Below are positions 9,558-47,008 of a stretch of 64,000 nucleotides of DNA, piece by piece. The translations under genes were made by a program, and so were the position numbers. This DNA comes from a phage. The stretch lies in sequence record PZ229304.1. One strand, written 5' to 3'. The notes under the pieces were generated by a model that had not been told where the DNA came from, did not search any database, and was given only the letters and a program-made list of their open reading frames with translations. Positions within the stretch are counted from its first letter, which is position 1, and every line of letters starts with the position of its first letter.

Positions 9558-12137
9558 TCAGTGACAAGACGCCCATGAGTTACCAACATCGTAACCAGCA
9601 GTTAGAGGTACATTAAGATTGTAATACTCACCAGCTTTATTAACAGCGATAGATGCTAATTCTCCAGCACGACTGTAGGCTGTAAACCAACCACCTTTAG
9701 GAGATTCATGTACGTTAGCCCAAATCTTGCCAGTACGTTTCTCTTCCTCTTCTTTCCAGGCGTTAACTTTATCCAAACATTCTTTATCAATTTTCTTTTG
9801 TTCTTCTGGATCATCAACTTGAGTCCAACCTAAAGATTCTTTAGAGAACCATTTAAAATGCACCAGATCACGAGTTACTTCAAGCTGCGCTTCATCGTGA
9901 TATGCAATCATTTGTTGAACGAATGACTTATTTTTCCAGTCATCAACAAAAAAGTCAACAGCTAATCCTTCTTCTTCGATAAGATCATCGTAGATAACCA
10001 TTGCTCTTTTTGCACAAATAACACCACCACTCTGGAACAGAGAGTTAAGTATTGCGTGTGCAGATCGTGTAGGTACTTTCCTACCATCAATACCAAGAAT
10101 GTATTTCTTACCTGTTTTAACCCAAAAATCATGCAGACGTTCTTTAAGAAGCGCAAGAGGTTTTGCAGCTTCCCAGAAAGCATCGTATACAAGCTGTCCT
10201 GTATACATATCACTACCAATGGTTTTTGCTACTTTTGCAGCTTGAGCACCATAAGTAATACCATACTTAACAGATTTAGCAGGGCTTCGTTCAAACTTAC
10301 GACCAATAGTATCAGAAATACGTCGAGCCATCATTGTATGAACATCATTAGGTTTTTCCAACAACAGAGCATTACAATATTCGTGTGGTTCCTGCTCGTA
10401 CCGCCAACAGTAGTGTGATTCTATTTTTGCCTCAAGAGAATCAAAGTCATAACCAATTTGGAAGTATTTTGGAACTTCTACACCAAATAAGTTACGCATT
10501 TCATATCCGTACAGAGATGTTACACGTGGGATATTTGCTACTAACCTATGTTTCATACGAGACGTAGCTGCATCACACGTTGCAGCAGGAGTTGGTATAC
10601 GACCATCAGCCCTTACTGCCGCCAGATAACCTTTATCGTAATCCTCTTCATCTTCTTCCCAATCAGCACCACCACCTAGAATAGAGTTTCTACGATGTTT
10701 ATACGTAAGATACTGCACAATCTGCGTAGCATAAGGAAACTTTTCACCTAGTGCTTCCAAGTTAGGACAAATATCCTTCTCTTGCCCTTTTGTAAAGGAA
10801 GGGTTAGTAAGCACTTTAACACCACGACCTTTAGCTTTAGCAATACGATCTCTTAGTTTCCATTCCAAAGTTTCTGGTGTGCACTCCAGATGATCACATC
10901 TATCCTGGCAGAAGTTAGATGCTAATGTTTGATCAACATAGTCACGAATAGCTTTCTCCATTTGTGCTTCATCTTTCTTAATCTTAGTGCCAGATTTAAG
11001 AGTGATATCTTTATCTTTATATTCAGATGGACTCCAACCTAAACCAACTAACCAATTTTTAATATGTGTCGTGTCGTCTAAAGTAGCAGGTACTGTAGGA
11101 TCACAAATAGGTTCTTCTGCTGGAATAGGGAGTTTAAACTCTTTACCTAATGCAAATAACCACCAACCATCTTCTTTTTGTACAAGTTCACCAGAATGTT
11201 TCTCTGCAAACTTTATCATGTTACTTGAAGGTTCACCATTCTTTTTAAACTGTAGTTTAGGTGGAATGAATGATTTCAAATAACCTTTAGTAGCAGGTTT
11301 AGGAGGTAGTACAGGTTCTGCCTCTAAACGACATGCTTCCATTCGAGCATCCAGATCACGAATATTATCTTCTGCTTGTTTCATATTGAAAGCAAAGCCA
11401 CGGTGCTCTTGACGTGTAATAATATCAGCTACACGTTGTTCTAAGTTAAATGGTTCAGACCACTTACTATAATCGCCCCACTCTTCCATCAAATAACGGA
11501 ACACTGCGGTGTTAGCTTTGTTATCGTAAATACAGTAATACAGCATATCTGCTGCAAATGTTCTAAATCTTTCAGTTTCAGGAATGTTTTTTCTGAAATC
11601 AATTTTAACATCCCCTCCAGCTTTCTTAGATAACTCTGCCAGACTATGACCACCGAAGCGATCAGGGTTTAGTGTCTTACTTAAGATCATAGTATCACAA
11701 ATTTCAATGTTACTATTACCCCAAGTATTGTACTTAATACTGTAGTTGAGTTTAAAAAATAATTTAATTGCCAGTAAGTCGAAGTTAATGATGTTGTGTC
11801 CAACTACTTTGGTAATTTTATAGTTTGAATTACCTTTAAATTTACCTGTTCCATTTACAAAATCAGGAAAATCTTTAAGAGGGAAATGGGTATATTCTAA
11901 ATGCTCATATTCCTCCAGTCGGTATTCATACTTTCCGTCAGTCTCAACATATGGACGACCATCGAAAAGATATTTATCACCATCATGGAAAGCAATAATC
12001 TCTCCAGTATCATGACTTTCGCACACAATACAGTGCATTGCAAAACTATCTTTTAAACGATATGGACTTGCCAAGTAATCTACACTTTCGTCATTAAGCA
12101 AGTTGTTACTTTCAATGTCGAAAGTAAAAGCTCCCAT
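9558..12137 (-). CDS. DNA polymerase, family A (T7 gp5-like) with 3'-5' exonuclease domain
   Basis: 859 aa; N-terminal FDIES exo motif; several segments recognisably similar to T7 DNA polymerase as recalled from memory (RFGGHSLAELSKKAGG; IDGRKVPTRSAHAILNSLFQSGG; C-terminal GNSWASCH). Confidence 0.9.
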   Translation of the reverse strand: MGAFTFDIESNNLLNDESVDYLASPYRLKDSFAMHCIVCESHDTGEIIAFHDGDKYLFDGRPYVETDGKYEYRLEEYEHLEYTHFPLKDFPDFVNGTGKFKGNSNYKITKVVGHNIINFDLLAIKLFFKLNYSIKYNTWGNSNIEICDTMILSKTLNPDRFGGHSLAELSKKAGGDVKIDFRKNIPETERFRTFAADMLYYCIYDNKANTAVFRYLMEEWGDYSKWSEPFNLEQRVADIITRQEHRGFAFNMKQAEDNIRDLDARMEACRLEAEPVLPPKPATKGYLKSFIPPKLQFKKNGEPSSNMIKFAEKHSGELVQKEDGWWLFALGKEFKLPIPAEEPICDPTVPATLDDTTHIKNWLVGLGWSPSEYKDKDITLKSGTKIKKDEAQMEKAIRDYVDQTLASNFCQDRCDHLECTPETLEWKLRDRIAKAKGRGVKVLTNPSFTKGQEKDICPNLEALGEKFPYATQIVQYLTYKHRRNSILGGGADWEEDEEDYDKGYLAAVRADGRIPTPAATCDAATSRMKHRLVANIPRVTSLYGYEMRNLFGVEVPKYFQIGYDFDSLEAKIESHYCWRYEQEPHEYCNALLLEKPNDVHTMMARRISDTIGRKFERSPAKSVKYGITYGAQAAKVAKTIGSDMYTGQLVYDAFWEAAKPLALLKERLHDFWVKTGKKYILGIDGRKVPTRSAHAILNSLFQSGGVICAKRAMVIYDDLIEEEGLAVDFFVDDWKNKSFVQQMIAYHDEAQLEVTRDLVHFKWFSKESLGWTQVDDPEEQKKIDKECLDKVNAWKEEEEKRTGKIWANVHESPKGGWFTAYSRAGELASIAVNKAGEYYNLNVPLTAGYDVGNSWASCH

Positions 12138-12632: not shown

Positions 12633-14405
12633 TTAATAAGAACCAGCAGGAATATTCTCTGGGTTACTTGTGTATTGATCGTAATCGTGAAGTGTAGCTG
12701 TTTTAATCTCATAGAAGAAACTACCTGCTGCACCAGTCTCTGAGAACTCACGGTTCTTTAGAATGTAGCAATATGTGCGGTTACGCTCCATAGGATCTTC
12801 AGCTTGTTTATCACGCTCCAGCGCAATTGTGATACCAGCACCTTTAGCAAGGAAGCTACTACCCATTGCATCATCTTCTACAATATGCTCATTACTATTG
12901 TTAGAAGACTTTTTAACGTGTGAAATTACAACAATGGTGATTGCGTACTCTTTCATAATGCGTTTGAGCCACGTCGCAAGTTCCTCTTGTTGTGACACGT
13001 CCATACCAGAAAGCAAATCAGAATAAGGGTCGATAACAAGAATGGTTACTCCGAAATAAATAATCATTTCCAGAACCTTCTCTTTAATCACATCTACGTT
13101 AGCTCCACGATCATCACAAACATAGAAACGTGGTGTTCCATCTTCCCGTTCGTAAAAATCACGAATCTTTTCTTCATTATCTTTTAAAATCTTTTCCTTC
13201 TCTTCCTTTGTCTTACGGTGAAGAGGGATATGCAAGAATGAAGACAGTAAGTTACGAGAATACTTCTTATACGTTGCCTCCAAAGATAAAATACCAAGAG
13301 TATGTTCTGGGTGTGCAAGAATAATGTGCTTCGTAATCTCGTTAACCAACAGTGTCTTACCAATACTTGTTTTTGCAAGTATAACAGTAATTTCTTCTTC
13401 TACCAAGCCTCCACCTAACATATTAGAAGCAACACGCATGAATGGAGGAAGTGTGATCATTTTAGCTTCCAAGCATTCCAGGGCTGCTTCATACAGTACG
13501 TTAGAAGCATAAACACCAGCAGGTGTGTACAGTTTAGCTTTGAAAAAGCGATCAATAAAATGATCAATTTTTCCTTCTACTAACGCCTGGTTAGGATCTT
13601 TAACATCCGTTAGCTCCATCACGTAAACTTTATTACGTGGTAAGATTTTAACACATTTCTCAACCGCTGCACGTCCAGCTTCATCATTATCCATACACAG
13701 AACAATCTTTTTAAATTGATCTAAGAATTTATAACGATGTTGAAGCTGTTTATGTAGAGATGTTTCGCCACAAGTACCAGATACTACAGCAGGAACAGGA
13801 TATTTACCACCCTTGTTATAATCTTTTAGCATCTGTGTTGCAGCCAGCATATCGTGTTCACCACCAACGATTAGAATAGTACCGCTGTGGTTACGATATT
13901 TAAACTCACCAAAAAGATCACAATCCTTTCCTGTTTCACCAATAGGATGCGAAAAATCTTTTGGATCAATACGTTGTTTATACCCAGCAATATTGTAATC
14001 TTTAGTTGTAGGGTATAGTGTTGAAATTACTTCGCCAGTGGCTTCATCGTACATATAGCGTACACCGAAAGGTTTAGAGATATCTTCACGAATACCACGA
14101 TAACCTTTTGGATTAGTTCCAGTGCTGGCTTTTAGCTTATCATGCACTTCTGGATTAAACTCACTACCCAAGATATCCTCCTCTTCAATTTCTTCGCCGT
14201 GTGCATTTAACCATTTTTGATCAGGGATAGTAAAGCCACAAGAAAAACAATGTGCGCCTCGATGGTCTTCATCGGCATCTAAGCCATATACCATTAAATT
14301 GTTTTGTGATCGATCACGTCCTCCTTTCATACAACGAGGACACCCAGTATGTCCTTCTTGACTTAGATCAATGTTATACCCATATTTATTTACAACATAA
14401 GACAC
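12633..14405 (-). CDS. Bifunctional primase-helicase (T7 gp4-like)
   Basis: 590 aa; N-terminal zinc-binding CPRC...HCFSCG primase finger, central primase region, C-terminal DnaB-type helicase with Walker A (AKTSIGKT); adjacent to family-A polymerase. Confidence 0.85.
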   Translation of the reverse strand: MSYVVNKYGYNIDLSQEGHTGCPRCMKGGRDRSQNNLMVYGLDADEDHRGAHCFSCGFTIPDQKWLNAHGEEIEEEDILGSEFNPEVHDKLKASTGTNPKGYRGIREDISKPFGVRYMYDEATGEVISTLYPTTKDYNIAGYKQRIDPKDFSHPIGETGKDCDLFGEFKYRNHSGTILIVGGEHDMLAATQMLKDYNKGGKYPVPAVVSGTCGETSLHKQLQHRYKFLDQFKKIVLCMDNDEAGRAAVEKCVKILPRNKVYVMELTDVKDPNQALVEGKIDHFIDRFFKAKLYTPAGVYASNVLYEAALECLEAKMITLPPFMRVASNMLGGGLVEEEITVILAKTSIGKTLLVNEITKHIILAHPEHTLGILSLEATYKKYSRNLLSSFLHIPLHRKTKEEKEKILKDNEEKIRDFYEREDGTPRFYVCDDRGANVDVIKEKVLEMIIYFGVTILVIDPYSDLLSGMDVSQQEELATWLKRIMKEYAITIVVISHVKKSSNNSNEHIVEDDAMGSSFLAKGAGITIALERDKQAEDPMERNRTYCYILKNREFSETGAAGSFFYEIKTATLHDYDQYTSNPENIPAGSY

Positions 14406-14417: not shown

Positions 14418-14687
14418 CTAAAATGATTCGTTTGTCTCCATAATATATTGCATTTCCAAATCTTCCATATGTTTCTTAAATTGGTAAACAATTTCCGATG
14501 GGGAAATATCTATATCAAAAAGTTCTTTTGTACCAGAATAAAACCTAATACCATCAACAATAAGACCACCATAATAATCCCAATCACTTTCTCGTGAGAA
14601 AGGATTAGGTTCTTCATAATAGTAATCTACTTCAACAATAATAGGTTCTTTATTATCTTGTTTATACTCAAAATCAAAAGTGTTCAT
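14418..14687 (-). CDS. Hypothetical protein
   Basis: 89-aa acidic/aromatic-rich ORF in array. Confidence 0.35.
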   Translation of the reverse strand: MNTFDFEYKQDNKEPIIVEVDYYYEEPNPFSRESDWDYYGGLIVDGIRFYSGTKELFDIDISPSEIVYQFKKHMEDLEMQYIMETNESF

Positions 14688-15631
14688 TATAAATCCTCGA
14701 TAAGCAGTCTGCGGGTTTCATTTAAATCATCAATATTGTAGTTATCTCTTACATACTTAGCAAGAGCTAATCCTTTCTCAATACAAACATCAGGAGATTC
14801 GATTAAGTATTCTACAATATCTTTCCACTCTTTAACTGAATCAGCAAAGAAGATTAGATCTTTAAATTCTTCAGTATAATAGTTCTCCCGTGGTGAACAA
14901 ACGAGTGGCAAACCTTTAGCACCAGCTTCAAGAATTTTTAAATTACTTTTGGCATTATTAAAATGATTATTTACTAATGGAGCTATGGAGATTTGATGAC
15001 CATCGTATGCTTCCATATAACACTCATAAGGACGAATACCTTCATAAACACAATCTGGTTGAATATCTTCTTTAATTTGCAACCATTGAGCACTACTTAA
15101 CTCTTCATGATCTCTACGAAATCCACATAAAGTTAAATCTTTACCAAAACTAGGAAGAATAGCTAAATCATGTTTATGTGTTTCACTTCCCGCCCAAACC
15201 AGTGGACTTTTAGAATAACGATCTTTCGTAAGAACAAACTGTCCTTCATCAAAAGGTAGTCCATTAGGCACAATATGTACATTATCATTGTATTGGCTTA
15301 ATTCAACCTTTAATGCTGGAGTTGTTGTAGTTACAAGATCGCTTCTTTCAAGGAACCATTTTAGATCATCTCGGATTTGATTTTCAAATAATCCTTCAAG
15401 CATATGTCCTTCAGGGATAATTAAAGAATCATCCAGATCCATTACCAATTTAAACCCAAGTTGTTTAAGAGCCAGGAAACCTGGCTTTCCACGGGTTGGT
15501 ACTCCATTGAACACAAAAATATTATGCTTAGGATTGATGGTCAGTTTGCGTTTATATGGCAAAATGATTCTATGAAAATCACATACACTATACTTTTCAT
15601 TTCCGCGTGTGTCAAGAATAATATTAGGCAT
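14687..15631 (-). CDS. Glycosyltransferase-like protein (GT-B fold, group-1-like), paralog A
   Basis: 314 aa; clear paralogy with the next gene (CDFHRI...DLDD...VTTTT...PNGLPFDEGQFVLTKDRYS...WAG...ISIAPLV.N.FNNAKSNLKILEAGAKGLP); EAGAKGLP(L/I)(V/I)CSP resembles the EAmAxGxPVVas motif of group-1 glycosyltransferases. Confidence 0.5.
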   Translation of the reverse strand: MPNIILDTRGNEKYSVCDFHRIILPYKRKLTINPKHNIFVFNGVPTRGKPGFLALKQLGFKLVMDLDDSLIIPEGHMLEGLFENQIRDDLKWFLERSDLVTTTTPALKVELSQYNDNVHIVPNGLPFDEGQFVLTKDRYSKSPLVWAGSETHKHDLAILPSFGKDLTLCGFRRDHEELSSAQWLQIKEDIQPDCVYEGIRPYECYMEAYDGHQISIAPLVNNHFNNAKSNLKILEAGAKGLPLVCSPRENYYTEEFKDLIFFADSVKEWKDIVEYLIESPDVCIEKGLALAKYVRDNYNIDDLNETRRLLIEDL

Positions 15632-15642
15632 ATCGCTCCTTA

Positions 15643-16617
15643 TTAAAGACTTTCAATAACTTGACGACGCAGTTCATTGGCATCTGCAAGATTATAATTA
15701 AGACGAACGTGTTCTGCAAGCATCATACCACGATCTTCTGTGTATCTAGGGTTTCTCATTAGCTTCACAACTTCATAATGCCAAGATGCTTTAGAGTCTG
15801 CATAGATAACAGCCTTTGCATCTACCGGATTGAAGTACGGCAGCACAGGAGAACAGATAATAGGAAGACCCTTTGCACCTGCTTCCAAAATCTTCAAATT
15901 GCTTTTACAGTTGTTGAAGTCATTATCTACCAGAGGAGCAATTGCAATACTGTGACCGTCATACACAGACATATACTCACCTAAATTTTTAATAGCTGGT
16001 TTATACTGTGCATTTGGAATTTTACGTTTTACTTTAACCCACTCCGCAGTAGTTAGATACTGACTATTATTTCCAACAGGTGCAGAAGGATACACTTCAT
16101 ACCCTGCAATTGTCAATAGTGTATCATCAAATGTATTAGCTACAAGAGATAAATCAGGTTCATGGCTTGCTCCTCCAGCCCAAATAATAGGCGTGTCAGA
16201 ATAACGGTCTTTTGTCAAAGTAAATTGACCTTCGTCGTAAGGTAGTGCGTTTCTAATAACGACAACATTACGATTTAAATGACGAATTTTGTAAGCTAGG
16301 TATTCTGTTGTTACTGTAACAACATCTGCTAACTTAACCATTTCTACAATAGTCTTTGAATGATTAGTAAATACGCCAGCCATATAATGTTCAGGATTAA
16401 GTGAATAAAAGTCATCTAAATCAACAATAATCTTAACACCTTGTGCCTTCAGGCGTTTAACTTCGTCTGCTCCATGAGAATACACTCTATTAAAAACTAA
16501 AACGTCTTTCTTAGGTTTAAACGTATTTCCAGCAAATGGCATTACAATACGATGGTAATCACAACCACTGCCTAACTTATTATCACACTTAAGTACAGGA
16601 GTATTAGGATTTACCAT
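15643..16617 (-). CDS. Glycosyltransferase-like protein (GT-B fold, group-1-like), paralog B
   Basis: Paralog of 14687..15631; start set at the ATG at 16617 preceded by GAGGAGG (the ORF-track start at 16656 lacks an RBS). Confidence 0.5.
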   Translation of the reverse strand: MVNPNTPVLKCDNKLGSGCDYHRIVMPFAGNTFKPKKDVLVFNRVYSHGADEVKRLKAQGVKIIVDLDDFYSLNPEHYMAGVFTNHSKTIVEMVKLADVVTVTTEYLAYKIRHLNRNVVVIRNALPYDEGQFTLTKDRYSDTPIIWAGGASHEPDLSLVANTFDDTLLTIAGYEVYPSAPVGNNSQYLTTAEWVKVKRKIPNAQYKPAIKNLGEYMSVYDGHSIAIAPLVDNDFNNCKSNLKILEAGAKGLPIICSPVLPYFNPVDAKAVIYADSKASWHYEVVKLMRNPRYTEDRGMMLAEHVRLNYNLADANELRRQVIESL

Positions 16618-17290
16618 ATTTTTGAGCCTCCTCATAAGAGATAAAAGTTTTACCATTGCGAAGATCCTCCAGTGATTGTTTATATTGTTCCCAGTTTACA
16701 CCAATCCCCTGTTCTTTCTCTTCTTTTGACAGATTCGCAAAAGGTAAAGGATTGTCTCCAAACACATCGTCAGGATGGATAAACGCCATAATTCGAATAG
16801 GACATGGTACGCCTGGAATACCTCGGTTCAAACCTGCCAGCGGAACGCGCTGAATCCACTCTGCATCTTCATATCCATAACCGTGGGTGTATGAGCGGAA
16901 ATAGCCAGCTTTCTCAATAACTGCACGGGAATACATACCAAACTGGCACATCCCTAGTTCCCAAATAACCACTTCCCCTTCAATACCTTTTACTTTATCT
17001 TTAAAGTATTCAGGCATACCAAAGAAATCCCAACCATTTTCCTTCGCCTGTTTTACAAAATATGTTTCCCAACCTTGAACAACAGGATAACAATCATCAT
17101 CAAAAATAAACCAGTAATCATACCCTTCATCATAAAACTTTTTCATCAGTTCATTACGAGCATATGCAACACCTTTTCGTTCCCGATCATACTGTACAAC
17201 AAAAGTAGCATTAGGATCAGTCACAAGATAGTCTTTAAGAGGACGCTTACCTACAGTAATAACACCAACACCAATTTTTGTATTTTCCAA
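16604..17290 (-). CDS. Glycosyltransferase-like protein (GT-A-like, DxD motif)
   Basis: 228 aa; WFIFDDDCYP resembles the DxD nucleotide-sugar/metal-binding motif of GT-A enzymes; clustered with the two GT-B-like paralogs. Confidence 0.4.
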   Translation of the reverse strand: MENTKIGVGVITVGKRPLKDYLVTDPNATFVVQYDRERKGVAYARNELMKKFYDEGYDYWFIFDDDCYPVVQGWETYFVKQAKENGWDFFGMPEYFKDKVKGIEGEVVIWELGMCQFGMYSRAVIEKAGYFRSYTHGYGYEDAEWIQRVPLAGLNRGIPGVPCPIRIMAFIHPDDVFGDNPLPFANLSKEEKEQGIGVNWEQYKQSLEDLRNGKTFISYEEAQKYGKS

Positions 17291-17299
17291 AATAACTCC

Positions 17300-17863
17300 T
17301 TAAATAATTTTATTCATGTCTTGACAATGTAAAAGGTGTGAAACAGCTTTTCTAGGATCATCGTTACCTAAACGGTAGGTGTGAAATAAATATAACCCAC
17401 GTAGTAAACCTAGCCTTTTATTGTTAGCGTGTAATGCTTTAGAGAAAATTATATCAAACTGTATTGATCTTTCCTCAAAAGGGATTTCATTCCACAGACT
17501 CTTACGAAAGAGAAGAAAGAATCCTGCTAAGATAGCATCTGTAGGTACTTCCTCTATTGAGTTTCCCCATTCTAGATGTGCTCTTTTTGCAATCTCAATG
17601 TGGTGTAATATATTTGGATCTTCACTTCTTTCATTATTAAATAATTGATATGTTGATCCCAATCTATTACAAGATGCACCAAGAACATCAAAATCAGGAT
17701 TTGAACGAACTATTGATTCCAGCCAAGCAGGTTGTTCTGGAAGAAGAAACATTGTATCAATGTCTCTTAGGCAAATCCAACTATCTTCTGGTAAGACACT
17801 TATTGTGTCATTGATACCTTTTCCAATATCTCCAGAAAGATAGGGAGTTATGTGAAATATCAT
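17300..17863 (-). CDS. Hypothetical protein, possibly a fourth glycosyltransferase-like protein
   Basis: 187 aa; CLRDIDTMF DxD-like motif; weak. Confidence 0.3.
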   Translation of the reverse strand: MIFHITPYLSGDIGKGINDTISVLPEDSWICLRDIDTMFLLPEQPAWLESIVRSNPDFDVLGASCNRLGSTYQLFNNERSEDPNILHHIEIAKRAHLEWGNSIEEVPTDAILAGFFLLFRKSLWNEIPFEERSIQFDIIFSKALHANNKRLGLLRGLYLFHTYRLGNDDPRKAVSHLLHCQDMNKII

Positions 17864-18611: not shown

Positions 18612-19121
18612 TTAGCGATAGAATTGATGTTCTTTGTAGCGGTACACTAGAACCATATCTTTTTCCCAGTGTGCTCTTATTGTAGATTTTTTAAAGTATA
18701 ATGCTCCTTTTGTAATATCTAATGCAATTCGTAATTCTGGAAAATGCGTATCGAGATAAAGTAGACGTTCTGCTATAGCCTTAGCTTCCTTCCACTTATC
18801 ACGTTCCATAACGTTGAATGTCTTTGTGTAAGAGAATTGTCCTTTTTGAAACAAAACTTCTTTTATAGTATCAGGGAAATATGAATCTCTAGCCCTATTC
18901 AATACTACATTACCAACAGCAGACATACCGCGCTTTCCTTGATTACGACTTTCTGCATAGATTGCACAAGCTAATAGATTTTCTTTACTATCACGCTTTG
19001 TACACTTGTGAACTACTTTAGCAGTTTTTACGTTTGCAGCTTCGGCTTGCGCCACAACAGGTGTAAATGTAAAAGCAGTTAAGGATAGTAACGCAATTGC
19101 GACAAAGGTTTTTATTGACAA
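18612..19121 (-). CDS. Secreted cell-wall hydrolase, SleB-like (candidate endolysin)
   Basis: N-terminal signal peptide (MSIKTFVAIALLSLTAFTFTPVVAQA) then CAIYAESRNQ...MSAVGNVVLNRAR, which resembles the conserved core of SleB/Hydrolase_2 cell-wall hydrolases. Confidence 0.55.
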   Translation of the reverse strand: MSIKTFVAIALLSLTAFTFTPVVAQAEAANVKTAKVVHKCTKRDSKENLLACAIYAESRNQGKRGMSAVGNVVLNRARDSYFPDTIKEVLFQKGQFSYTKTFNVMERDKWKEAKAIAERLLYLDTHFPELRIALDITKGALYFKKSTIRAHWEKDMVLVYRYKEHQFYR

Positions 19122-19880: not shown

Positions 19881-20477
19881 TTACTCGAACCAATCGTCGC
19901 CAGCGCCAAACGCTTTAACTACATCGTAAATGTCAAGCCCAGCTTTACCTACACCATATGCTTTCAGTTTCCATTCGCTATCTTCTCGCACCAGGGAGGC
20001 AACGTGGCAAATGGTGTTACCTGCAAGTTCTGGAGCCAAGAAGTCAAAGTCCAGCAGTTCAACATTACGTTCATCATCGAAGATTTTAAGGAAACCTTCG
20101 GTAGCGTGACCAAGGCGTTTCTTACCCGTTTCGTCATCAATAGTAATTACGAATGCAATTTCCTGTGCTTCAGCAGAGATATTATCCAGTGTAACATCAA
20201 TCTGCTCCATCTGTCCTACACCATCACGAACATCTTCACCTGCAAAAGTAGAACGTTCAGGATCAAATTTCTGCGCGTAGCACACCAGGTGACGAGGAGA
20301 CAACAGTTCCGGCAGACCAGATGCATTGTGTCGGCAAATCAGAGCACTAACATCCAGATCCAGTTTTTCGTTAGATTTCCAAGAGAATTCCAGACGAATG
20401 CGTTTCAGTGCTGGTGCGATCTTTTTCAGAGAAACTTTTTCGCTAGAACCTTTTTTCAGGGAAATTTTCTGAGTCAT
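19881..20477 (-). CDS. TerD-family protein (tellurium-resistance/stress-response TerD domain)
   Basis: 198 aa; segment-by-segment similarity to E. coli/plasmid TerD as recalled (ISLKKG..KVSL; DLDVSALIC; IAFVITIDD; FLKIFDDERNVELLDFDF; EWKLKAYGVG); AAGGAG RBS. Confidence 0.75.
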   Translation of the reverse strand: MTQKISLKKGSSEKVSLKKIAPALKRIRLEFSWKSNEKLDLDVSALICRHNASGLPELLSPRHLVCYAQKFDPERSTFAGEDVRDGVGQMEQIDVTLDNISAEAQEIAFVITIDDETGKKRLGHATEGFLKIFDDERNVELLDFDFLAPELAGNTICHVASLVREDSEWKLKAYGVGKAGLDIYDVVKAFGAGDDWFE

Positions 20478-20549
20478 AATTTATTATCTCCTTTGTTGTT
20501 AATTTACGTTGTCTATTTTACTAATCTTTTCTACAAAGTCAAGCGTTTT

Positions 20550-21344
20550 TTACGCTTTTGCTCCGAATTTTTTAACCCACTCACCAAACTCTTCGGATAG
20601 CAGTTTATCGTAAAGTTCTTCGTCAGACAAGGACAAATCTGCAATACCGATAAAATCAACATTATCGTATTCTTTTGCCAAGTCTTTCAAGAATTTAAAG
20701 TTTGCATTACCTACACCAACCATAAACCAGTAAACAGGAGTGTTGCGGTGTTTGTTCAGCAAACTACGTACTGCTGAAGTATCCATGTTCTCCCCGTCAG
20801 TTTGGAAGAAAATCATTGCAGGAGTACGATCAACTTGTGCATCAGTATCTACAACCTGCTCTACAACAGTACGTGTTACTTCTACAAGTTCTTTTTTACC
20901 AGTTAGTTTAGCAAGGAAACCTTTAGCCGGAACTTCTTCATACTCAACGACTTCGCGTGTAATATTTTTCATAGGTACACTACCGAAGTATGTATCATAG
21001 ATCTCTTGCATTACTGGAGCATAGGCTGTACCACCGTTGATGCAAACATTAGACATGCAAGAGCCGACATAATCATCATACACATCAGCCGTTGCAGGAG
21101 GCAGTTCAAAAGAAGAACTATTGAAAGCCCACATGTCAATCTGTGCATTATCATCAAACTTCATACCAAACGGCAGCAGTTTACCTACAAAATCACTAAC
21201 AGTGCCATCACGATATAGCTCACACATACTACCCGAAATATCTAAGGCGCTACCGACACGAAGAACAACATCGTTAATCTTTTTCTTACGCAGAGATACA
21301 GTAAGAGTTTCTTGACGTTTTTTAAGACTGATTTTATTGGACAT
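20550..21344 (-). CDS. von Willebrand factor A (vWA) domain protein, TerY-like
   Basis: 264 aa; MIDAS-type motif DISGSM near N-terminus followed by vWA-like hydrophobic/polar pattern; immediately upstream of the TerD-like gene, as in ter loci. Confidence 0.6.
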   Translation of the reverse strand: MSNKISLKKRQETLTVSLRKKKINDVVLRVGSALDISGSMCELYRDGTVSDFVGKLLPFGMKFDDNAQIDMWAFNSSSFELPPATADVYDDYVGSCMSNVCINGGTAYAPVMQEIYDTYFGSVPMKNITREVVEYEEVPAKGFLAKLTGKKELVEVTRTVVEQVVDTDAQVDRTPAMIFFQTDGENMDTSAVRSLLNKHRNTPVYWFMVGVGNANFKFLKDLAKEYDNVDFIGIADLSLSDEELYDKLLSEEFGEWVKKFGAKA

Positions 21345-21345
21345 A

Positions 21346-21615
21346 TTATTTCTCCTTTCTGACTATAATGTTAGTAACTTCTAAATCCACTTCTACCACT
21401 TCTGTATCATATAAAATACAGTTAAGTTGACCTCTTTGTGAACCGTTCAGACACATTGCTTGGTTTGTATTAACCTTAATAAACACTAAGTTTATGAACG
21501 TATCTAAACCAGAATCTTGATAGGCAACATAATATACGAATGTATCACCTGCGTCAAGTTCTCCAAAACATTTAGGTTCATCTGATTTGTCGTCTTTGAT
21601 GTTAAATTTAAGCAC
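21346..21615 (-). CDS. Hypothetical protein
   Basis: 89-aa ORF in array. Confidence 0.35.
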   Translation of the reverse strand: MLKFNIKDDKSDEPKCFGELDAGDTFVYYVAYQDSGLDTFINLVFIKVNTNQAMCLNGSQRGQLNCILYDTEVVEVDLEVTNIIVRKEK

Positions 21616-22171
21616 TGTCTTCTCCTTTACCTGCTCTCAAGCCTAAATAGAAAGCCTCTCTGGTGATCTTTTGCAACTCGTTTAAAGCGATAGTTACAAC
21701 TAAATCATCTTCAATTTCTAGCTTTGAGTCTTCTTCTGTCTCAATGCAAGTATTATGCACTTTGTGGTAAGGATTGTCAACACGTTTAAATTTATTATTT
21801 TCAGTGCTGAAGAAGCAATCTGGATCTTCTTCCCCATCACCCAAACCCTGGTTAGGATCTTCTTCAGATCTTTCTGTTGGGATCTCACCTGTAAAGTGCT
21901 CTTCTAATACCAGAGCAATCCCATCTCCAAGATCGGAAGAGAACATCAAATTACAAACTTCTTCCCAAGGCATAGACCACTTAAATCTTTTACGATTACC
22001 ATGTTTATCTTCTTCGTTAGAGAAAACACTACCATAGCTATCATAATTCCCATACATCTCTTCGACAACCTTACCACCTTTCAAAAGAAATAGGTAGCAA
22101 GGAGAGCCATCGAAAGAGGTAGAAAGAGCAGCATTACCAGACTCTTTGCACAAGAAACTAAAACACCCCAT
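21608..22171 (-). CDS. Hypothetical protein (acidic)
   Basis: 187-aa ORF. Confidence 0.4.
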   Translation of the reverse strand: MGCFSFLCKESGNAALSTSFDGSPCYLFLLKGGKVVEEMYGNYDSYGSVFSNEEDKHGNRKRFKWSMPWEEVCNLMFSSDLGDGIALVLEEHFTGEIPTERSEEDPNQGLGDGEEDPDCFFSTENNKFKRVDNPYHKVHNTCIETEEDSKLEIEDDLVVTIALNELQKITREAFYLGLRAGKGEDSA

Positions 22172-22371
22172 TATACACCAGCCTTAAGATCAATTAAAGC
22201 CAAAGTTGTTTCAGAGTGTGTTTGCTCGTCTACAGGTGCAGTCATATGATAATACAAAAAATCTTCGGCATCATACCAATCTGACTCTTGACCTTGTTTC
22301 CAACCATCAATGAAAGCATCTTCCATAATTGTTTGTAACTCTTCACGAGTTAAGTGAATATCTTTACTCAT
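22171..22371 (-). CDS. Hypothetical protein
   Basis: 66-aa ORF with start/stop overlap to neighbours. Confidence 0.35.
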   Translation of the reverse strand: MSKDIHLTREELQTIMEDAFIDGWKQGQESDWYDAEDFLYYHMTAPVDEQTHSETTLALIDLKAGV

Positions 22372-22604
22372 TACACATTCTCCTCTTTTACCAATTCCAT
22401 CGTTGAACTATCAAAACCATCTTTAGAAGAATAGGTATAGACAGAACGTAGTTCGCGCAGGACAGTGAATACATTAGGATCATCTAACCAAGCATCCTGG
22501 AGGAGAACATAACGATCTTCATTGTCGTACTGGACAGCAATCATAGAACCAGACAGTTTGTAAATTTTAATATTCATAATATATTTCTCCTTAAAGTAGA
22601 CCAC
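22371..22604 (-). CDS. Hypothetical protein
   Basis: 77-aa ORF. Confidence 0.35.
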   Translation of the reverse strand: MVYFKEKYIMNIKIYKLSGSMIAVQYDNEDRYVLLQDAWLDDPNVFTVLRELRSVYTYSSKDGFDSSTMELVKEENV

Positions 22605-23694
22605 GTTTAACAGTTTGAATCATGCCATCTTCAAGAGATTGCACTTCTTGAATGTAATCAATACGAGCAGCACGGGCTTCAGTGTTGATTCGGTTAGTTT
22701 CTTCCAACATTTTAACTAAGTTTTCTTGATCACGACGTAATGTTTCAATATCCAACACTTGACGATTAGCAAGTTGTGTAGCTTCAATTTGGTTTTGTGC
22801 AGCAAGATCACTACCCATTGCAATAGCAGCATTAAATTCATTCAGTACATTGTTCTGTGTATCGGCTGCTTTCTTCTGGCGTAGACTTTCAATATACATA
22901 GAAAAGTTTGCAGAGTAAGCAGGAATAACATTATTCACAATATTACGGGCTGATCGCATCAAACTTGCAGATACTTTCTGCATACTTTGTACACGTGGCC
23001 CCATCTGAACACACAGTAAGCGTAGGGCTTTCAGGTCTGCAATACGAATTTCAAGCAGATCCATAGTATCACGAGTACGTTGACGCTCTTCTACCTCATT
23101 TTCAGGCAGTGTATTAAGGCGAACTTCTTCTTTTTCATAAGTAGCTGTTAGAAGCTCTATATCTCTGTTTAAGCTAAGAGCATATTTGGCAATAGCCTCT
23201 TCTAAACGTTGCAGATATCGTAAAGAATCTTCTTCTTTTTTCAAGTCTGTTTGGAGTGTCTTTACCAAACCTTCAATACGATTATTGATGGTGTCAAATT
23301 CTCCAAACAAATCTTCTTTCATACCTAATACTTTCTTAACTAACTTACCTAAACCTTTAGATTGTTTAATAGAATTAGGATCAAGTTGCTTTGCTTGCTT
23401 AATAAGTGCAGTTAAACGTTCACTCATTTCATCTCCCTGAGATGAACGCTGGTGTTTAAGCACTTCAGCATTAAGGTTACGAAGAGTAAGTCCTGCATCA
23501 GCACCAACCTGTTCAATCTCTTCACGAGACATTGGAGGCAGCATTTGTACAGGTCGTGCAACAGCAGGGGCATATACAGGACTTGCATCCATAGCAGTTG
23601 GAGCAAACAAAGACTTACTTTTTTCTGTTGTTGCCGTGAATACACTCATTTCAGACGGTTTGCTTTTTACGGCACTGATAAAAGGACTGGACAT
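22591..23694 (-). CDS. TelA/KlaA-like (toxic anion resistance family) coiled-coil protein, tentative
   Basis: 367 aa, predominantly coiled-coil, size and composition compatible with TelA; assignment leans on genomic context (TerD, vWA, TerC neighbours) rather than a recognised signature. Confidence 0.4.
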   Translation of the reverse strand: MSSPFISAVKSKPSEMSVFTATTEKSKSLFAPTAMDASPVYAPAVARPVQMLPPMSREEIEQVGADAGLTLRNLNAEVLKHQRSSQGDEMSERLTALIKQAKQLDPNSIKQSKGLGKLVKKVLGMKEDLFGEFDTINNRIEGLVKTLQTDLKKEEDSLRYLQRLEEAIAKYALSLNRDIELLTATYEKEEVRLNTLPENEVEERQRTRDTMDLLEIRIADLKALRLLCVQMGPRVQSMQKVSASLMRSARNIVNNVIPAYSANFSMYIESLRQKKAADTQNNVLNEFNAAIAMGSDLAAQNQIEATQLANRQVLDIETLRRDQENLVKMLEETNRINTEARAARIDYIQEVQSLEDGMIQTVKRGLL

Positions 23695-23762
23695 TCAATT
23701 TCCTCCATATTCTTTAGTAGATGGTGATACCTCTGTACCACCATCATAACACAAATTAAGTA

Positions 23763-24614
23763 TTAAACAAACATATCTAAATAATTTGTAGTAATAAACG
23801 CCCCATCTGCTTCCAGATTAACATAACCAGTAGCATTAGTGGTTAAGAAATCCAGATCGAAGGACTCTTTAACACCCCGTACCTCAACACGAGAGATATC
23901 GAATACAGGTAGTGTAACAGCCTCTTCGTGCAATACCGTACCTTTGTAGGTTGCCTTAATGATAAACTTGATATTACCCGTTCCAGCATCATACAAAACA
24001 CTTTCAAACCCTTTGAGAGTATATTTATCACCAGAAGTGAAGTGCAAAGTTGCTTTGTTTACAGTACGTTTTTTACGAGGAGTTCCTTTCACACGTTTAT
24101 GATCACTACGTTTTTTGTATTTAGGAATGAATACAAACGATACACTCTCAAGAAAGGTATCAACATCAAGGATTTTAATATCCTCTGTTGCAGCAAATTT
24201 TGAAGTCGTTGCATCAAAATGCTTTTCCCTGCGATCATACATAAAGATATCAAACCGATCTTCTAAATCAAACAAATTATGTATTTTAATTTCAGAATGC
24301 TTGCGCATTGCAGCAACCTTGAACTCTTCAAAACGTGGGTGTTCTACAAGTTCTTCAAGTTTTACACCAAAGACAGTATATTGCTTCGGAGTTTTTTCTG
24401 GTGTTGGCATTACAGAAGCATAATCCCCGATTGCGCTCTTAAAGCAAAATTGTTCTTGACCTGTATTTTTACCAACGAATTTACAGTATTCGTCATCGTG
24501 CATACTTTCCTGGGTAGTACCAACAAACTCAAAACCATCTTTATTCTTCTCAAGAATTTCTTGATTAAAGATCCAACCTTCCAGGCGATACACTTTACCA
24601 ACTTCTAGTTTCAT
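23763..24614 (-). CDS. Hypothetical protein
   Basis: 283-aa ORF. Confidence 0.4.
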   Translation of the reverse strand: MKLEVGKVYRLEGWIFNQEILEKNKDGFEFVGTTQESMHDDEYCKFVGKNTGQEQFCFKSAIGDYASVMPTPEKTPKQYTVFGVKLEELVEHPRFEEFKVAAMRKHSEIKIHNLFDLEDRFDIFMYDRREKHFDATTSKFAATEDIKILDVDTFLESVSFVFIPKYKKRSDHKRVKGTPRKKRTVNKATLHFTSGDKYTLKGFESVLYDAGTGNIKFIIKATYKGTVLHEEAVTLPVFDISRVEVRGVKESFDLDFLTTNATGYVNLEADGAFITTNYLDMFV

Positions 24615-24649
24615 CTGTTTCTCCTTCTTATTTAATCTGTATTAAATTA

Positions 24650-25240
24650 TTAACGACGACGTGAGCTACTAAAACTACGTTTCGACGAAGAATAACTTTT
24701 CGAAGACTTACTATAAGAGCTAATAGGACTTGAGTAAGACTTACGAGCAGAGTAATCACTATTCACTTTTGTTGTTGATGGGCGTGAATACGTTTGTACA
24801 CTTTGCTGCTTAATTGTGTTTTGTTTAGTTGTTGTATATGTATTCCCTTGTTTATCATAAAAACTATGCTTTTGTGTTGTATATGCTTTACTATTAGTTG
24901 CAGGAGCAGCATTGTTATTAATAATGGTTGTATTGCTACCACCATCTCTATAACCACCACCGCCACTATTACCACTCAACATATGACCAAGAAGCATACC
25001 TGTAGCAAAGTCACCTACACCAGAAGAACCACTGCCGCCTCCTTGAACAACAACTGTTGAAGGTTGTGCAGGTGCTGCTTGAACAACTTGAGGTGCAGGT
25101 TGATTTACATATTGTTCATCTACCATCTGATTTGGTGTTTGTTGGTAACGTTGATTTTGTACATTTTCAGAATCATCACAACCTACCAGCAATGCACTAC
25201 CTAAAACAACTGCAACAATAAAAGATTTAATGTTTTTCAT
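24650..25240 (-). CDS. Lipoprotein with glycine-zipper-like and Ser/Tyr/Lys-rich low-complexity regions
   Basis: Start set at MKNIKSF (GAGAGGG RBS); signal peptide with lipobox LLVGC; Gly-rich stretch GSGSSGVGDFATGMLLGHMLSGNSGGGG; C-terminal SYSKSSKSYSSSKRSFSSSRRR. Confidence 0.5.
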   Translation of the reverse strand: MKNIKSFIVAVVLGSALLVGCDDSENVQNQRYQQTPNQMVDEQYVNQPAPQVVQAAPAQPSTVVVQGGGSGSSGVGDFATGMLLGHMLSGNSGGGGYRDGGSNTTIINNNAAPATNSKAYTTQKHSFYDKQGNTYTTTKQNTIKQQSVQTYSRPSTTKVNSDYSARKSYSSPISSYSKSSKSYSSSKRSFSSSRRR

Positions 25241-25433
25241 TTGTAACCCTCTCATTTAAAGTCTCAACACAATTTTTAAAATCCCTAGAGAAACAATACA
25301 TCTGCTCTCCGTTCCTGTTGATAGTAATTGTATGGTTATCAATATATGTTGTCAAGATAAAAATTAAACAAAACAACCCTAAAGCAAAACAAATATTTTC
25401 AAACAGAATCCAAAGAACACGTAAAACCACCAT
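25227..25433 (-). CDS. Small membrane protein (hypothetical)
   Basis: 68 aa with one hydrophobic span; overlaps lipoprotein start by 14 nt. Confidence 0.3.
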   Translation of the reverse strand: MVVLRVLWILFENICFALGLFCLIFILTTYIDNHTITINRNGEQMYCFSRDFKNCVETLNERVTNEKH

Positions 25434-25448
25434 CAGATCACCTCAATA

Positions 25449-25466
25449 AAGCCCCCGAAGGGGCTT
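25449..25466. terminator. Hairpin AAGCCCC-CGAA-GGGGCTT
   Basis: 7-bp perfect stem between TerC-like gene and small membrane gene. Confidence 0.4.
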
Positions 25467-25472
25467 AATGAA

Positions 25473-26450: not shown

Positions 26451-26527
26451 TCTTTCCTCCTCTTTAATGCGGAGGACAATCCTCCGCTCTATGTCTTATA
26501 CTATAAACTGTTTTTAAAGAAAGTCAA

Positions 26528-26776
26528 CTAGTTCAGTTCTGTAATTTTAAGTTTATCTTCTTTGTTAATGATAGGGAAAGCTACAGCATCACCTACATCA
26601 TCAATAAAGCAAATAGCAAGACCACCTTCCACTTTGCTAACCTGACCGTTAAAGGCATGATACGGGGCAGGAACTTCATCCCCATCTTCAATGAGAATAG
26701 CCTCGTAAACCTTGCCGATAGTACAATCACGGGTGTTTATAAATTTTTCAAGCACTTCAACATTTACTTTACGCAT
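26528..26776 (-). CDS. Hypothetical protein
   Basis: 82-aa ORF. Confidence 0.35.
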   Translation of the reverse strand: MRKVNVEVLEKFINTRDCTIGKVYEAILIEDGDEVPAPYHAFNGQVSKVEGGLAICFIDDVGDAVAFPIINKEDKLKITELN

Positions 26777-26790
26777 ATAAAGATCCTCTC

Positions 26791-26997: not shown

Positions 26998-27006
26998 ACT
27001 TTCTCC

Positions 27007-29222: not shown

Positions 29223-29391
29223 TTTTAATCCTCCGTCCAAAAGAATATCATCTGCTTAATTTTATTGATCTCTTGATGTAGTAACTTTCCAGCATGTGAT
29301 TGATCTTTAATATTGACAGCAAGAATTTCAAGCTCCGTTAGTTTTTCCTGGATAGCTTTATATTCATCATCTGTAAGCATTTTCTTCCCCT

Positions 29392-38187: not shown

Positions 38188-38188
38188 T

Positions 38189-46975: not shown

Positions 46976-47008
46976 CATTAATGCCAGATTTAATAAGAGG
47001 AGTAGTAG

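What the first reader, a model, noticed from the sequence alone, without database searches (positions are those of the whole stretch)
14687..17863. Cluster of four glycosyltransferase-like genes, including a tandem paralog pair, embedded in the replication block
Two adjacent GT-B-like paralogs (EAGAKGLP(L/I)(V/I)CSP motif, collinear conserved blocks) are followed by a GT-A-like protein with a DDD motif and a fourth DxD-containing protein. The cluster sits directly downstream of the primase-helicase and polymerase. In phages such placement is typical of DNA hypermodification enzymes (sugar transfer onto hydroxymethylated bases), though modification of host surface glycans or phage proteins is also possible. 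No hydroxymethylase is visible in this window.
Basis: inference. Interest (0 to 1): 0.6.

Follow-up and report, generated by a model that had tools for sequence, protein, structure and literature searches.

The report
Phage sugar-transferase cassette, target unknown
Four real sugar-transferase genes sit together in a phi92-like E. coli phage that also makes its own rhamnose donor; the evidence suggests they build a sugar chain on a protein, probably of the virus particle, rather than on DNA, but no experiment has tested this.

Summary
Window 14687-17863 (minus strand) holds four tightly packed genes. Two are GT-B paralogs (314 and 337 aa, 40% identical). Two are unrelated GT-A enzymes (228 aa with invariant DDD and YG.ED; 187 aa with invariant DxD).

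The window is a phi92-like coliphage (Justusliebigvirus), 99% identical here to BASEL phage Bas62. The genes are already annotated as glycosyltransferases, and rhamnosylated DNA has already been proposed for this group. The genome also encodes RmlABCD (dTDP-L-rhamnose synthesis), outside the window.

The DNA-hypermodification reading is poorly supported:
- These phages are reported as exceptionally sensitive to restriction-modification systems.
- The only thymidylate synthase is ThyX-type, and no hydroxymethylase or TET/JBP was found.
- The profiles show no similarity to T4 beta-GT, T6 alpha-GT or T6 ggt.

The evidence points elsewhere:
- The 228-aa GT-A is a clear homolog (hhalign 99.3%, E 4e-20) of a cluster-F mycobacteriophage glycosyltransferase; Che8 and Rita of that cluster are reported to have glycosylated capsids.
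- The GT-A plus GT-B pair recurs in hundreds of environmental phages and prophages, often directly upstream of terminase and head genes.
- Non-phage GT-B homologs sit in inverse-autotransporter adhesin operons.

Best reading: a rhamnose-containing glycan assembled on a protein acceptor, probably virion. The acceptor is inferred, not shown.

The parts
17300..17863 (-). First gene of the cassette: a minimal GT-A glycosyltransferase of 187 aa, with a DxD motif (D34-I-D36) and a conserved H161-x-Y-R.
16604..17290 (-). GT-A (GT2-like) glycosyltransferase of 228 aa, with a DDD metal/nucleotide-sugar motif and a YG.ED motif (probable catalytic base). Homolog of the N-terminal domain of the 478-aa glycosyltransferase of cluster-F mycobacteriophages.
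15643..16656 (-). GT-B glycosyltransferase paralog 2 (337 aa, pI 8.8). Its start overlaps the 3' end of the preceding gene by 53 nt.
   Evidence: phrog_7162 E 7e-149. 40% identical to paralog 1, E 7e-82. Weak Pfam hits to Glyco_trans_1_4 and Glyco_trans_1_2. pI.
14687..15631 (-). GT-B glycosyltransferase paralog 1 (314 aa, pI 5.2), of the Glyco_trans_1_2 / GT4-like type.
   Evidence: PF13524 26.8 bits, above the cut-off of 25. phrog_7162 E 4e-145. Family alignment A3 with invariant DLDD, H76, H152, D155, K228, S229, E235. hhalign against Streptomyces phage KimJongPhill gp6: 99.8%, E 8e-30.
14418..14687 (-). Conserved acidic 89-aa ORF (pI 4.1) of unknown function, wedged between the last GT-B gene and the primase-helicase gene. 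A possible accessory; whether it belongs to the cassette is uncertain.
   Evidence: phrog_4240 E 8e-35. Homologs lie in the same position in related myoviruses, down to E 1e-3 (L005, L014, L028). It shares one base with the stop of the GT-B gene.

Best explanation
This is a phage-encoded glycan-assembly cassette. Four soluble, cytoplasmic Leloir glycosyltransferases are co-transcribed as one tight unit. Two are metal-dependent GT-A enzymes with DxD motifs and two are diverged GT-B paralogs. The phage also encodes its own dTDP-L-rhamnose pathway (RmlABCD) elsewhere in the genome, so one donor sugar does not depend on the host serotype. Four different transferases imply stepwise assembly of a short, probably rhamnose-containing oligosaccharide. 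The acceptor is most likely a protein, and most probably one or more virion structural proteins, glycosylated in the infected cytoplasm before or during assembly, as in cluster-F mycobacteriophages. It is unlikely to be DNA. Shown here: gene structure, folds, motifs, paralogy, homology relationships, gene neighbourhoods, and the presence of Rml genes in relatives. Inferred: use of dTDP-rhamnose by these particular enzymes, the oligosaccharide product, and the protein or virion acceptor.
For: Enzyme identity is covered. The proteins are soluble: no 19-residue window reaches transmembrane-type hydrophobicity (maximum KD 1.21). Operon structure: gaps run from -53 to +12 nt, each gene has an SD sequence, and there is no internal terminator. 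Donor pathway: RmlA, B, C and D in the 99%-identical relative all match at E <= 1e-72. RmlC co-occurs with the cassette throughout Justusliebigvirus and Phapecoctavirus. Link to virion glycosylation: the P3 family is homologous to Rita gp101 across the whole catalytic domain (99.3%, E 4e-20). tblastn finds about 340 mycobacteriophage records in the same relation. Che8 and Rita capsids are reported as glycosylated by phage glycosyltransferases (PMC11256854; PMC12363180). Modular spread: at least 552 IMG/VR contigs encode GT-B relatives. In 57 of the 80 fetched loci an ORF in the same locus matches the P3-family profile; where I inspected coordinates it is the neighbouring upstream gene, though most of these matches are weak (E about 1e-5), and GT2 is the commonest neighbouring Pfam family. 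The cassette lies directly next to terminase or head genes in at least 7 separate lineages: L004, L007, L012, L016, KimJongPhill, L030/L031 and Pseudomonas prophages. It is often accompanied by sugar epimerases, O-methyltransferases or acetyltransferases. Protein-acceptor hint: non-phage GT-B homologs in Burkholderia dolosa and Trinickia are the third gene of an operon headed by an inverse-autotransporter adhesin. In Pseudomonas prophages a small Big_2 protein with a Thr/Ala-rich tail directly precedes the pair. Evidence against DNA is listed under the DNA rival.
Against: No glycoprotein data exist for any phi92-like virion in the searched literature. There is no homolog of Che8 gp110 (the Rita gp103 ortholog), which is reported as essential for capsid glycosylation. 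In this phage and its myovirus relatives the cassette is co-transcribed with the primase-helicase and DNA polymerase genes, and that arrangement is conserved. This fits DNA work at least as well as virion work. A position just upstream of the terminase genes is, to my knowledge, also common for phage DNA methyltransferases, so that context does not discriminate. The Rml genes sit among nucleotide-metabolism genes. A Ser/Thr-rich sheath tail that looked like a candidate acceptor does not correlate with presence of the cassette. Homology of P3 to a mycobacteriophage GT shows shared ancestry and perhaps shared chemistry, not the same acceptor.
Confidence: 0.45

Rival explanations
1. DNA hypermodification. 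The transferases put rhamnose or other sugars on modified bases of phage DNA during or after replication, to evade nucleases.
For: The genes are co-transcribed with and directly upstream of the primase-helicase and Pol A genes, and this synteny is kept in relatives whose GT-B is only 38-43% identical. The Rml genes lie among RNR, ThyX and thymidine-kinase genes. There are sub-threshold hits of P3 to Pfam TAGT (E 4e-5) and to phrog_842 beta-glucosyl-HMC-alpha-glucosyltransferase (E 4e-5). One hypothetical protein matches a MazG/PRA-PH-type NTP pyrophosphohydrolase. The idea was proposed in PMC7552041.
Against: phi92-like BASEL phages are 'exceptionally susceptible' to the type I, II and III RM systems tested, which argues against wholesale replacement of a base. 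There is no ThyA-type hydroxymethylase, TET/JBP or 2OG oxygenase in the annotated genome or among 56 hypothetical proteins scanned. The thymidylate synthase is ThyX-type and a thymidine kinase is present, pointing to ordinary thymine. hhalign against T4 beta-GT, T6 alpha-GT and T6 ggt gives probabilities of 0.4-3.7%. A T4 gp42 homolog occurs in only 1 of about 100 related loci. The same GT families occur in prophages and in non-phage adhesin operons. Four transferases plus a dedicated donor pathway is a lot for a sparse modification.
Confidence: 0.15
2. Host envelope remodelling. The enzymes add rhamnose-containing residues to LPS core, ECA or capsule precursors of the infected cell. This would mask the phage's own glycan receptors, giving superinfection exclusion or preventing loss of progeny on cell debris.
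Against: None of the four has a membrane segment, and three are acidic. The cluster has no GtrA/GtrB-type flippase or membrane GT, no Wzx/Wzy and no initiating phosphotransferase. The phage is strictly lytic, and new LPS made during a short latent period cannot replace the existing outer-membrane receptors (inference). In prophages the pair sits in front of the terminase gene, not at typical moron sites.
Confidence: 0.2
3. Another acceptor: a host protein (takeover by glycosylation), a non-virion phage protein, or a small molecule such as the predicted nucleoside-like product of the adjacent Ter/PRTase/HAD gene set.
For: A complete Ter-type set lies 2-11 kb upstream on the same strand: TerD, vWA-TerF, TelA, TerC, a PRTase_3 protein, a HAD hydrolase and a macro-domain protein. 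The genome carries many metabolite- and NAD-related counter-defence genes. Nothing tested here fixes the acceptor.
Against: The GT cassette travels without Ter genes in nearly all other phages. Its only constant partners are other GTs and sugar-tailoring enzymes. There is no similarity to known protein-glycosylating toxins, and no EarP hit in Pfam.
Confidence: 0.12

Closest known systems
Virion-glycosylation genes of cluster-F mycobacteriophages (Che8 gp108/gp110; Rita gp101/gp103; Freeman et al. 2023, known here only through citing papers)
   Same: Both are phage-encoded soluble GTs acting in the cytoplasm. P3 is a true homolog of the N-terminal GT-A domain of Rita gp101 (99.3%, E 4e-20). Both are multi-GT cassettes, and in relatives they are accompanied by methyltransferases.
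   Different: The hosts and phage types differ: Gram-negative myovirus against actinobacterial siphovirus. There is no homolog of the second GT, Rita gp103, the ortholog of Che8 gp110 that is reported as essential. Here there are also two GT-B enzymes, a distinct minimal GT-A and a phage Rml pathway. Virion glycosylation is unproven here.
T-even DNA glucosyltransferases (T4 alpha-GT and beta-GT; T2/T6 beta-glucosyl-HMC-alpha-glucosyltransferase)
   Same: Both are phage GTs encoded beside replication genes. Alpha-GT and beta-GT are also GT-B enzymes (my own knowledge).
   Different: There is no sequence or profile similarity. There is no dCMP hydroxymethylase; one hypothetical protein does match a MazG/PRA-PH-type NTP pyrophosphohydrolase, the superfamily that includes dCTPases, but it was not characterised. 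The DNA of relatives is RM-sensitive.
TAGT, the TET/JBP-associated glycosyltransferases (Pfam PF20691)
   Same: Both have the GT-A fold with a DxD motif. P3 gives a weak match (24.1 bits).
   Different: The score is below the gathering threshold (27.5) and the match spans only residues 16-77. No TET/JBP partner is present.
Giant-virus capsid and fibril glycosylation (PBCV-1 A064R rhamnosyltransferase; Mimivirus R655/R699 with a viral rhamnose pathway)
Bacillus subtilis spore-crust glycosylation toolkit (SpsA GT-A, CgeB PF13524-type GT-B, SpsI-L dTDP-rhamnose pathway); cited from my own knowledge
   Different: It is not viral. The similarity is at family level only and no orthology was shown.
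Gtr-type seroconversion systems of temperate phages
   Same: Both are phage-encoded glycosylation systems.
   Different: Gtr systems are membrane-embedded (GtrA flippase, GtrB, GtrC). None of the four proteins here has a membrane segment, and the phage is lytic.

Membership tests
GT-A fold, DxD-dependent Leloir glycosyltransferases | Rossmann-like GT-A fold, shown by structural similarity to solved GT-A enzymes | tested here: met
GT-A fold, DxD-dependent Leloir glycosyltransferases | Conserved DxD metal / nucleotide-sugar motif | tested here: met
   D64-D65-D66 invariant in 19 P3 homologs. D34-x-D36 invariant in 30 P4 homologs.
GT-B fold, Glyco_trans_1_2 (PF13524) / GT4-like | Score at or above the Pfam gathering threshold | tested here: met
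   P1 scores 26.8 against 25. P2 alone is below threshold but is 40% identical to P1 (E 7e-82). Many homologs carry precomputed PF13524 or PF13692 hits.
GT-B fold, Glyco_trans_1_2 (PF13524) / GT4-like | Two-Rossmann-domain GT-B structure | not tested
There are only weak profile hits to GT4 structures 3c4q and TreT (E 0.015-0.03).
T4-type DNA glucosyltransferases (alpha-GT, beta-GT, ggt) | Homology to alpha-GT, beta-GT or ggt | tested here: not met
   hhalign probabilities are 3.7% (alpha-GT), 0.4% (beta-GT) and 0.7%/0.6% (ggt against the P3 and P4 families).
T4-type DNA glucosyltransferases (alpha-GT, beta-GT, ggt) | Partner enzyme that makes 5-hydroxymethyl pyrimidine (a ThyA-family hydroxymethylase) | tested here: not met
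   There is none in the window or in the genome of the 97-99% identical relative. Its thymidylate synthase is ThyX-type PF02511.
T4-type DNA glucosyltransferases (alpha-GT, beta-GT, ggt) | Glycosylated bases in virion DNA and resistance to restriction | not testable with these tools
   Only indirect evidence is available: BASEL reports phi92-like phages as exceptionally RM-sensitive. No nucleoside analysis was found.
TAGT (PF20691, TET/JBP-associated glycosyltransferase) | Pfam gathering score | tested here: not met
   P3 scores 24.1 bits against 27.5, over residues 16-77 only.
TAGT (PF20691, TET/JBP-associated glycosyltransferase) | Genomic association with a TET/JBP dioxygenase | tested here: not met
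   No Tet_JBP or 2OG family appears among the 16 Pfam families hit by 56 hypothetical proteins of Bas62, and none is annotated.
Mycobacteriophage virion-glycosylation GTs (Che8/Rita type) | Homology to the 478-aa GT (Rita gp101) | tested here: met
   hhalign 99.3%, E 4.4e-20, 194 columns for the P3 family. tblastn E about 1e-7 to about 340 mycobacteriophages.
Mycobacteriophage virion-glycosylation GTs (Che8/Rita type) | Homolog of the second, essential GT (Che8 gp110 / Rita gp103) | tested here: not met
   The P3 and P4 families against Rita gp103 give probabilities of 0.2% and 0.15%.
Mycobacteriophage virion-glycosylation GTs (Che8/Rita type) | Glycans covalently attached to capsid or tail proteins | not testable with these tools
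   This needs glycoprotein staining or mass spectrometry of virions. No report was found for phi92-like phages.
Gtr-type seroconversion systems | Integral-membrane flippase or GT components | tested here: not met
   The maximum 19-residue Kyte-Doolittle mean is at most 1.21 in all four proteins. No Gtr families appear in Pfam.

The most novel reading that the evidence does not exclude
The cassette and the phage Rml pathway put L-rhamnose-containing sugars on phage DNA by chemistry that needs no recognisable hydroxymethylase or TET/JBP. The modification would have to be sparse, or invisible to the type I-III restriction systems tested so far, and so aimed at some other defence. That would be a new class of DNA glycosylation. 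A less radical but more likely novelty is the first virion glycan coat on phages of Gram-negative bacteria, present in more than 130 sequenced therapeutic-type coliphages (about 0.4 probability).
Probability: 0.1. Interest if true: 0.85.

Novelty: new member of a known kind. Interest (0 to 1): 0.5.

Why it matters
phi92-like and phAPEC8-like phages are broad-host-range coliphages often proposed for therapy and biocontrol, and all of them keep this four-GT cassette together with a private dTDP-rhamnose pathway. The literature carries an untested guess (rhamnosylated DNA) that conflicts with their measured restriction sensitivity.

If the acceptor is the virion, these would be the first glycan-coated phages of Gram-negative hosts. 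That would bear on antibody recognition, pharmacokinetics and particle stability, as shown for mycobacteriophages.

The GT-A plus GT-B pair also turns out to be a widespread mobile module: at least 552 viral contigs, Pseudomonas prophages, and adhesin operons in Burkholderiaceae. Fixing its acceptor once would annotate many genes.

The question can be tested directly with a cassette deletion plus virion glycoproteomics and DNA nucleoside mass spectrometry.

Tried and rejected
1. Sequence searches of single proteins and of family profiles against PDB gave only chance-level hits.
2. NCBIfam gave no hits.
3. Foldseek of the P3 model against BFVD returned mostly unnamed or generic viral GTs. No T-even enzyme was named among the top 50, although many rows carry no name. 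This did not discriminate.
4. A Ser/Thr/Asn-rich C-terminal tail on the tail sheath looked like a possible O-glycosylation site. It is present only in Justusliebigvirus, is absent in Phapecoctavirus (which has the cassette), and a different tail exists in rV5-like phages (which lack it). There is no correlation, so the idea was dropped.
5. Isoelectric points were tried as a proxy for DNA binding: P1 5.2, P2 8.8, P3 5.1, P4 5.6, against T4 beta-GT 9.05 and T6 alpha-GT 6.1. This was not informative.
6. The promoter and terminator scan gave counts at the level of shuffled sequence, so expression timing could not be deduced.
7. Neighbour-family enrichment around GT-B relatives gave a mixed picture beyond GT2 and hexapeptide acetyltransferases, with both head and replication genes nearby. 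Position alone does not settle the acceptor.
8. The phi92 genome paper and the Freeman 2023 paper are not held in the library. Statements about them come from citing papers or from my own knowledge.
9. The genome-contig scan used a narrow pattern and returned only 8 loci.
10. The representative-library HMMER search was not run, because it returns no annotation or context.
Full report
WHAT IS THERE. The interval 14687-17863 holds four ORFs, all on the minus strand:
- P4, 17300-17863, 187 aa
- P3, 16604-17290, 228 aa, TTG start
- P2, 15643-16656, 337 aa
- P1, 14687-15631, 314 aa

They are packed with gaps of 9 nt, -53 nt (overlap) and 11 nt. A conserved 89-aa ORF (14418-14687) follows, then the primase-helicase gene (12633-14405), a 131-aa ORF, and DNA polymerase A (9558-12137). 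Each GT gene has a Shine-Dalgarno sequence, and no terminator-like hairpin separates them from the primase gene. They therefore look like one transcription unit in which the GT genes come first.

ARE THEY GLYCOSYLTRANSFERASES? Yes, all four.
- P1 and P2 are paralogs: 40% identity, E 7e-82, sharing LEAGAKGLP(L/I)(V/I)CSP. Both match phrog_7162 at about 1e-145. P1 passes Pfam's threshold for the GT-B family Glyco_trans_1_2.
- None has a membrane segment.

WHERE THE WINDOW COMES FROM. The region is 98-99% identical to 53 or more phi92-like coliphages (Justusliebigvirus, Stephanstirmvirinae), including BASEL phage JohannJBalmer (Bas62). The whole window is colinear with Bas62 positions 29855-94612. 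GenBank records already call these genes glycosyltransferases or 'putative disaccharide synthase'.

The Bas62 genome also carries RmlA, B, C and D, all matching at E <= 1e-72. Its thymidylate synthase is ThyX-type, and it has a thymidine kinase and two adenine methyltransferases. No hydroxymethylase is annotated. None of the Rml or thymidylate-synthase genes lies in the window. Fifty-six hypothetical proteins of Bas62 hit only 16 Pfam families. None of these is Tet_JBP, Thymidylat_synt or a 2OG oxygenase.

WHAT THE LITERATURE SAYS. Olsen et al. 2020 noted the complete dTDP-rhamnose pathway in these phages and in Phapecoctavirus. They suggested rhamnose glycosylation of hydroxymethylated nucleotides (PMC7552041). 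Maffei et al. 2021 measured the opposite phenotype. [quoted passage not shown] No nucleoside analysis or virion glycoprotein analysis of these phages turned up in five further searches.

TESTING THE DNA READING. Family profiles were compared with the T-even DNA glucosyltransferases:

| Family profile | Compared with | hhalign probability |
|---|---|---|
| GT-B (P1/P2) | T6 alpha-GT | 3.7% |
| GT-B (P1/P2) | T4 beta-GT | 0.4% |
| P3 | T6 beta-glucosyl-HMC-alpha-glucosyltransferase | 0.7% |
| P4 | T6 beta-glucosyl-HMC-alpha-glucosyltransferase | 0.6% |

- The Pfam TAGT hit of P3 scores 24.1 bits against a threshold of 27.5 and spans about 60 residues around the DxD motif. The phrog_842 hit is equally short.
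- Among about 100 related loci, a T4 gp42-type protein occurs once.

Together with the RM sensitivity and the missing hydroxymethylating enzyme, DNA is an unlikely acceptor. It is not excluded. The co-transcription with replication genes is conserved in relatives whose GT-B is only 38-43% identical. That remains the best argument for the DNA reading.

WHAT THE RELATIVES SAY.

P3 and the mycobacteriophages:
- P3's nearest relatives outside the Stephanstirmvirinae are the large glycosyltransferases of about 340 cluster-F mycobacteriophages.
- Against Rita gp101 the P3 family gives 99.3% probability, E 4e-20. The match spans 194 columns and so covers the whole catalytic domain.
- Che8 and Rita are reported to carry glycans on capsid proteins, added by their own glycosyltransferases.
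- The second gene, reported as essential (Che8 gp110, Rita gp103), has no counterpart here.

Spread of the GT-B family:
- It is large: at least 552 IMG/VR contigs.
- In 57 of the 80 loci fetched, an ORF in the same locus matches the P3-family profile. Where I checked coordinates it is the neighbouring upstream gene. Most of these matches are weak (E about 1e-5) and correspond to generic GT2 proteins.
- P4-like genes occur in 11 of the 80.
- GT2 and hexapeptide acetyltransferases are the most frequent neighbouring families.

Position in small phages and prophages. The pair or trio sits directly beside terminase or head genes:
- L004: terminase, P4-like gene, GT2, deacetylase, two methyltransferases, portal, capsid.
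- L007, L012 and L016.
- Streptomyces phage KimJongPhill: epimerase, methyltransferase, GT, terminase, portal (hhalign 99.8%).
- L031: P4-like, P3-like, GT-B, TerL, protease/capsid.
- Pseudomonas prophages: Big_2 protein, P3-like gene, GT-B, metallopeptidase, DUF2280, TerL, portal.

Non-phage homologs:
- Two non-phage homologs (Burkholderia dolosa and Trinickia) end an operon that begins with an inverse-autotransporter adhesin carrying Invasin_D3 and Big_1 domains.
- This resembles known adhesin plus dedicated-glycosyltransferase pairs (my own knowledge).

These contexts favour a protein acceptor. I note that DNA methyltransferases also often sit just before terminase genes (my own knowledge), so position alone is not decisive.

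MECHANISM PROPOSED. During infection the phage makes dTDP-L-rhamnose through its own RmlABCD. The four soluble transferases then act in sequence: two metal-dependent GT-A enzymes and two diverged GT-B paralogs that probably make different linkages. They assemble a short oligosaccharide on a protein in the cytoplasm, most probably on virion components before or during assembly.

The set of parts resembles two other systems: the Bacillus spore-crust glycosylation toolkit, and the capsid glycosylation machinery of chloroviruses and mimiviruses (fold-level neighbours; the biology is from my own knowledge). This set is an SpsA-like GT-A, a PF13524 GT-B and Rml enzymes. Donor use, product and acceptor are inferred.

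I put 0.45 on this reading, 0.15 on DNA, 0.2 on host envelope glycans, and about 0.12 on other acceptors.

VERDICT. The genes are known and annotated, and the DNA idea is already in print and already in tension with data. The finding is therefore a new member of a known kind (phage glycosylation cassettes) with an unresolved acceptor. Its interest is moderate. A simple mutant plus mass spectrometry experiment could show the first glycan-coated phage of a Gram-negative host. With lower probability, it could show a new kind of DNA glycosylation.

Noticed in passing
window 19881-29240 (minus strand): A full Ter-type gene set lies just upstream of the GT cassette: TerD (19881-20477), vWA-TerF-like (20550-21344), TelA (22591-23694), TerC membrane protein (25473-26450), macro domain (27007-27840), ComF-like PRTase_3 (27716-28573) and a HAD hydrolase (28566-29240). 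An AAA ATPase follows at 29630-30790. This matches the Ter-associated 'nucleoside-like metabolite' module predicted by Anantharaman, Iyer and Aravind (my own knowledge). It is unusual in a lytic coliphage.
   Followed up: partly
window 18612-19121 (minus strand): A SleB-type cell-wall hydrolase (PF07486, E 6.5e-20) with what looks like an N-terminal signal peptide (judged by eye from the translation, not predicted), separate from the endolysin annotated elsewhere in relatives.
   Followed up: no
window 2891-5710 (plus strand); L109 4625-5266; L111 807-4118: The 939-aa lateral tail fibre carries a Big_2 Ig-like domain (E 2.6e-14). GT-B relatives elsewhere sit next to Big-domain proteins: a small Big_2 protein with a Thr/Ala-rich tail in Pseudomonas prophages, and inverse-autotransporter adhesins in Burkholderiaceae. 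This may point to the acceptor class, but Big domains are common in phages.
   Followed up: partly
window 14418-14687 (minus strand): A very acidic 89-aa ORF (pI 4.1, phrog_4240) is conserved exactly between the last GT-B gene and the primase-helicase gene in related myoviruses, down to E 1e-3. Its function is unknown.
   Followed up: partly
window 16604-16656: The start of the GT-B gene P2 overlaps the end of the GT-A gene P3 by 53 nt in another frame. P2's first 16 residues have no counterpart in P1, and an in-frame Met14 exists, so the true start may be 39 nt further in.
   Followed up: no
window 35413-38226 (minus strand): The 937-aa ORF corresponds to the UvrD/Rep helicase that is annotated in Bas62 as interrupted by an intein.
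   Followed up: no
Bas62 76869-78593, which maps to roughly window 47000-48750 (plus strand): A CapR-homology/T5orf172 protein is followed by a NADAR-domain protein (PF08719, E 3e-36; annotated as a YbiA-like N-glycosidase). Elsewhere the genome has sirtuin, macro-domain, NAMPT and PRPP-synthetase genes. Together these suggest a rich NAD/ADP-ribose counter-defence repertoire.
   Followed up: no
window about 44000: GC skew changes sign from negative to positive near 44 kb. In Bas62 the annotated genes switch from the minus to the plus strand at 74.1-74.2 kb, which maps to about window 44.3 kb.
   Followed up: no
public records MG065639, MG065689, MG065645 (hits H100, H101, H143): Several GenBank records named 'Campylobacter phage' with host C. 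jejuni are 99-100% identical at protein level to this E. coli phage group in the genes compared (GT-B and RmlC). The host labels are probably wrong or reflect contamination.
   Followed up: no
L010 10001-20534 (Logan SRR27024726 contig, 47 kb): A distant P4 homolog heads a sugar gene cluster of at least 10 kb in a phage contig. It includes a GT-D-like protein, two TOD1_MUCI70 proteins, a DegT aminotransferase, an epimerase/dehydratase, a Methyltransf_24 protein and a Stealth-like protein. This is an unusually elaborate glycan pathway for a 47-kb phage.
   Followed up: no
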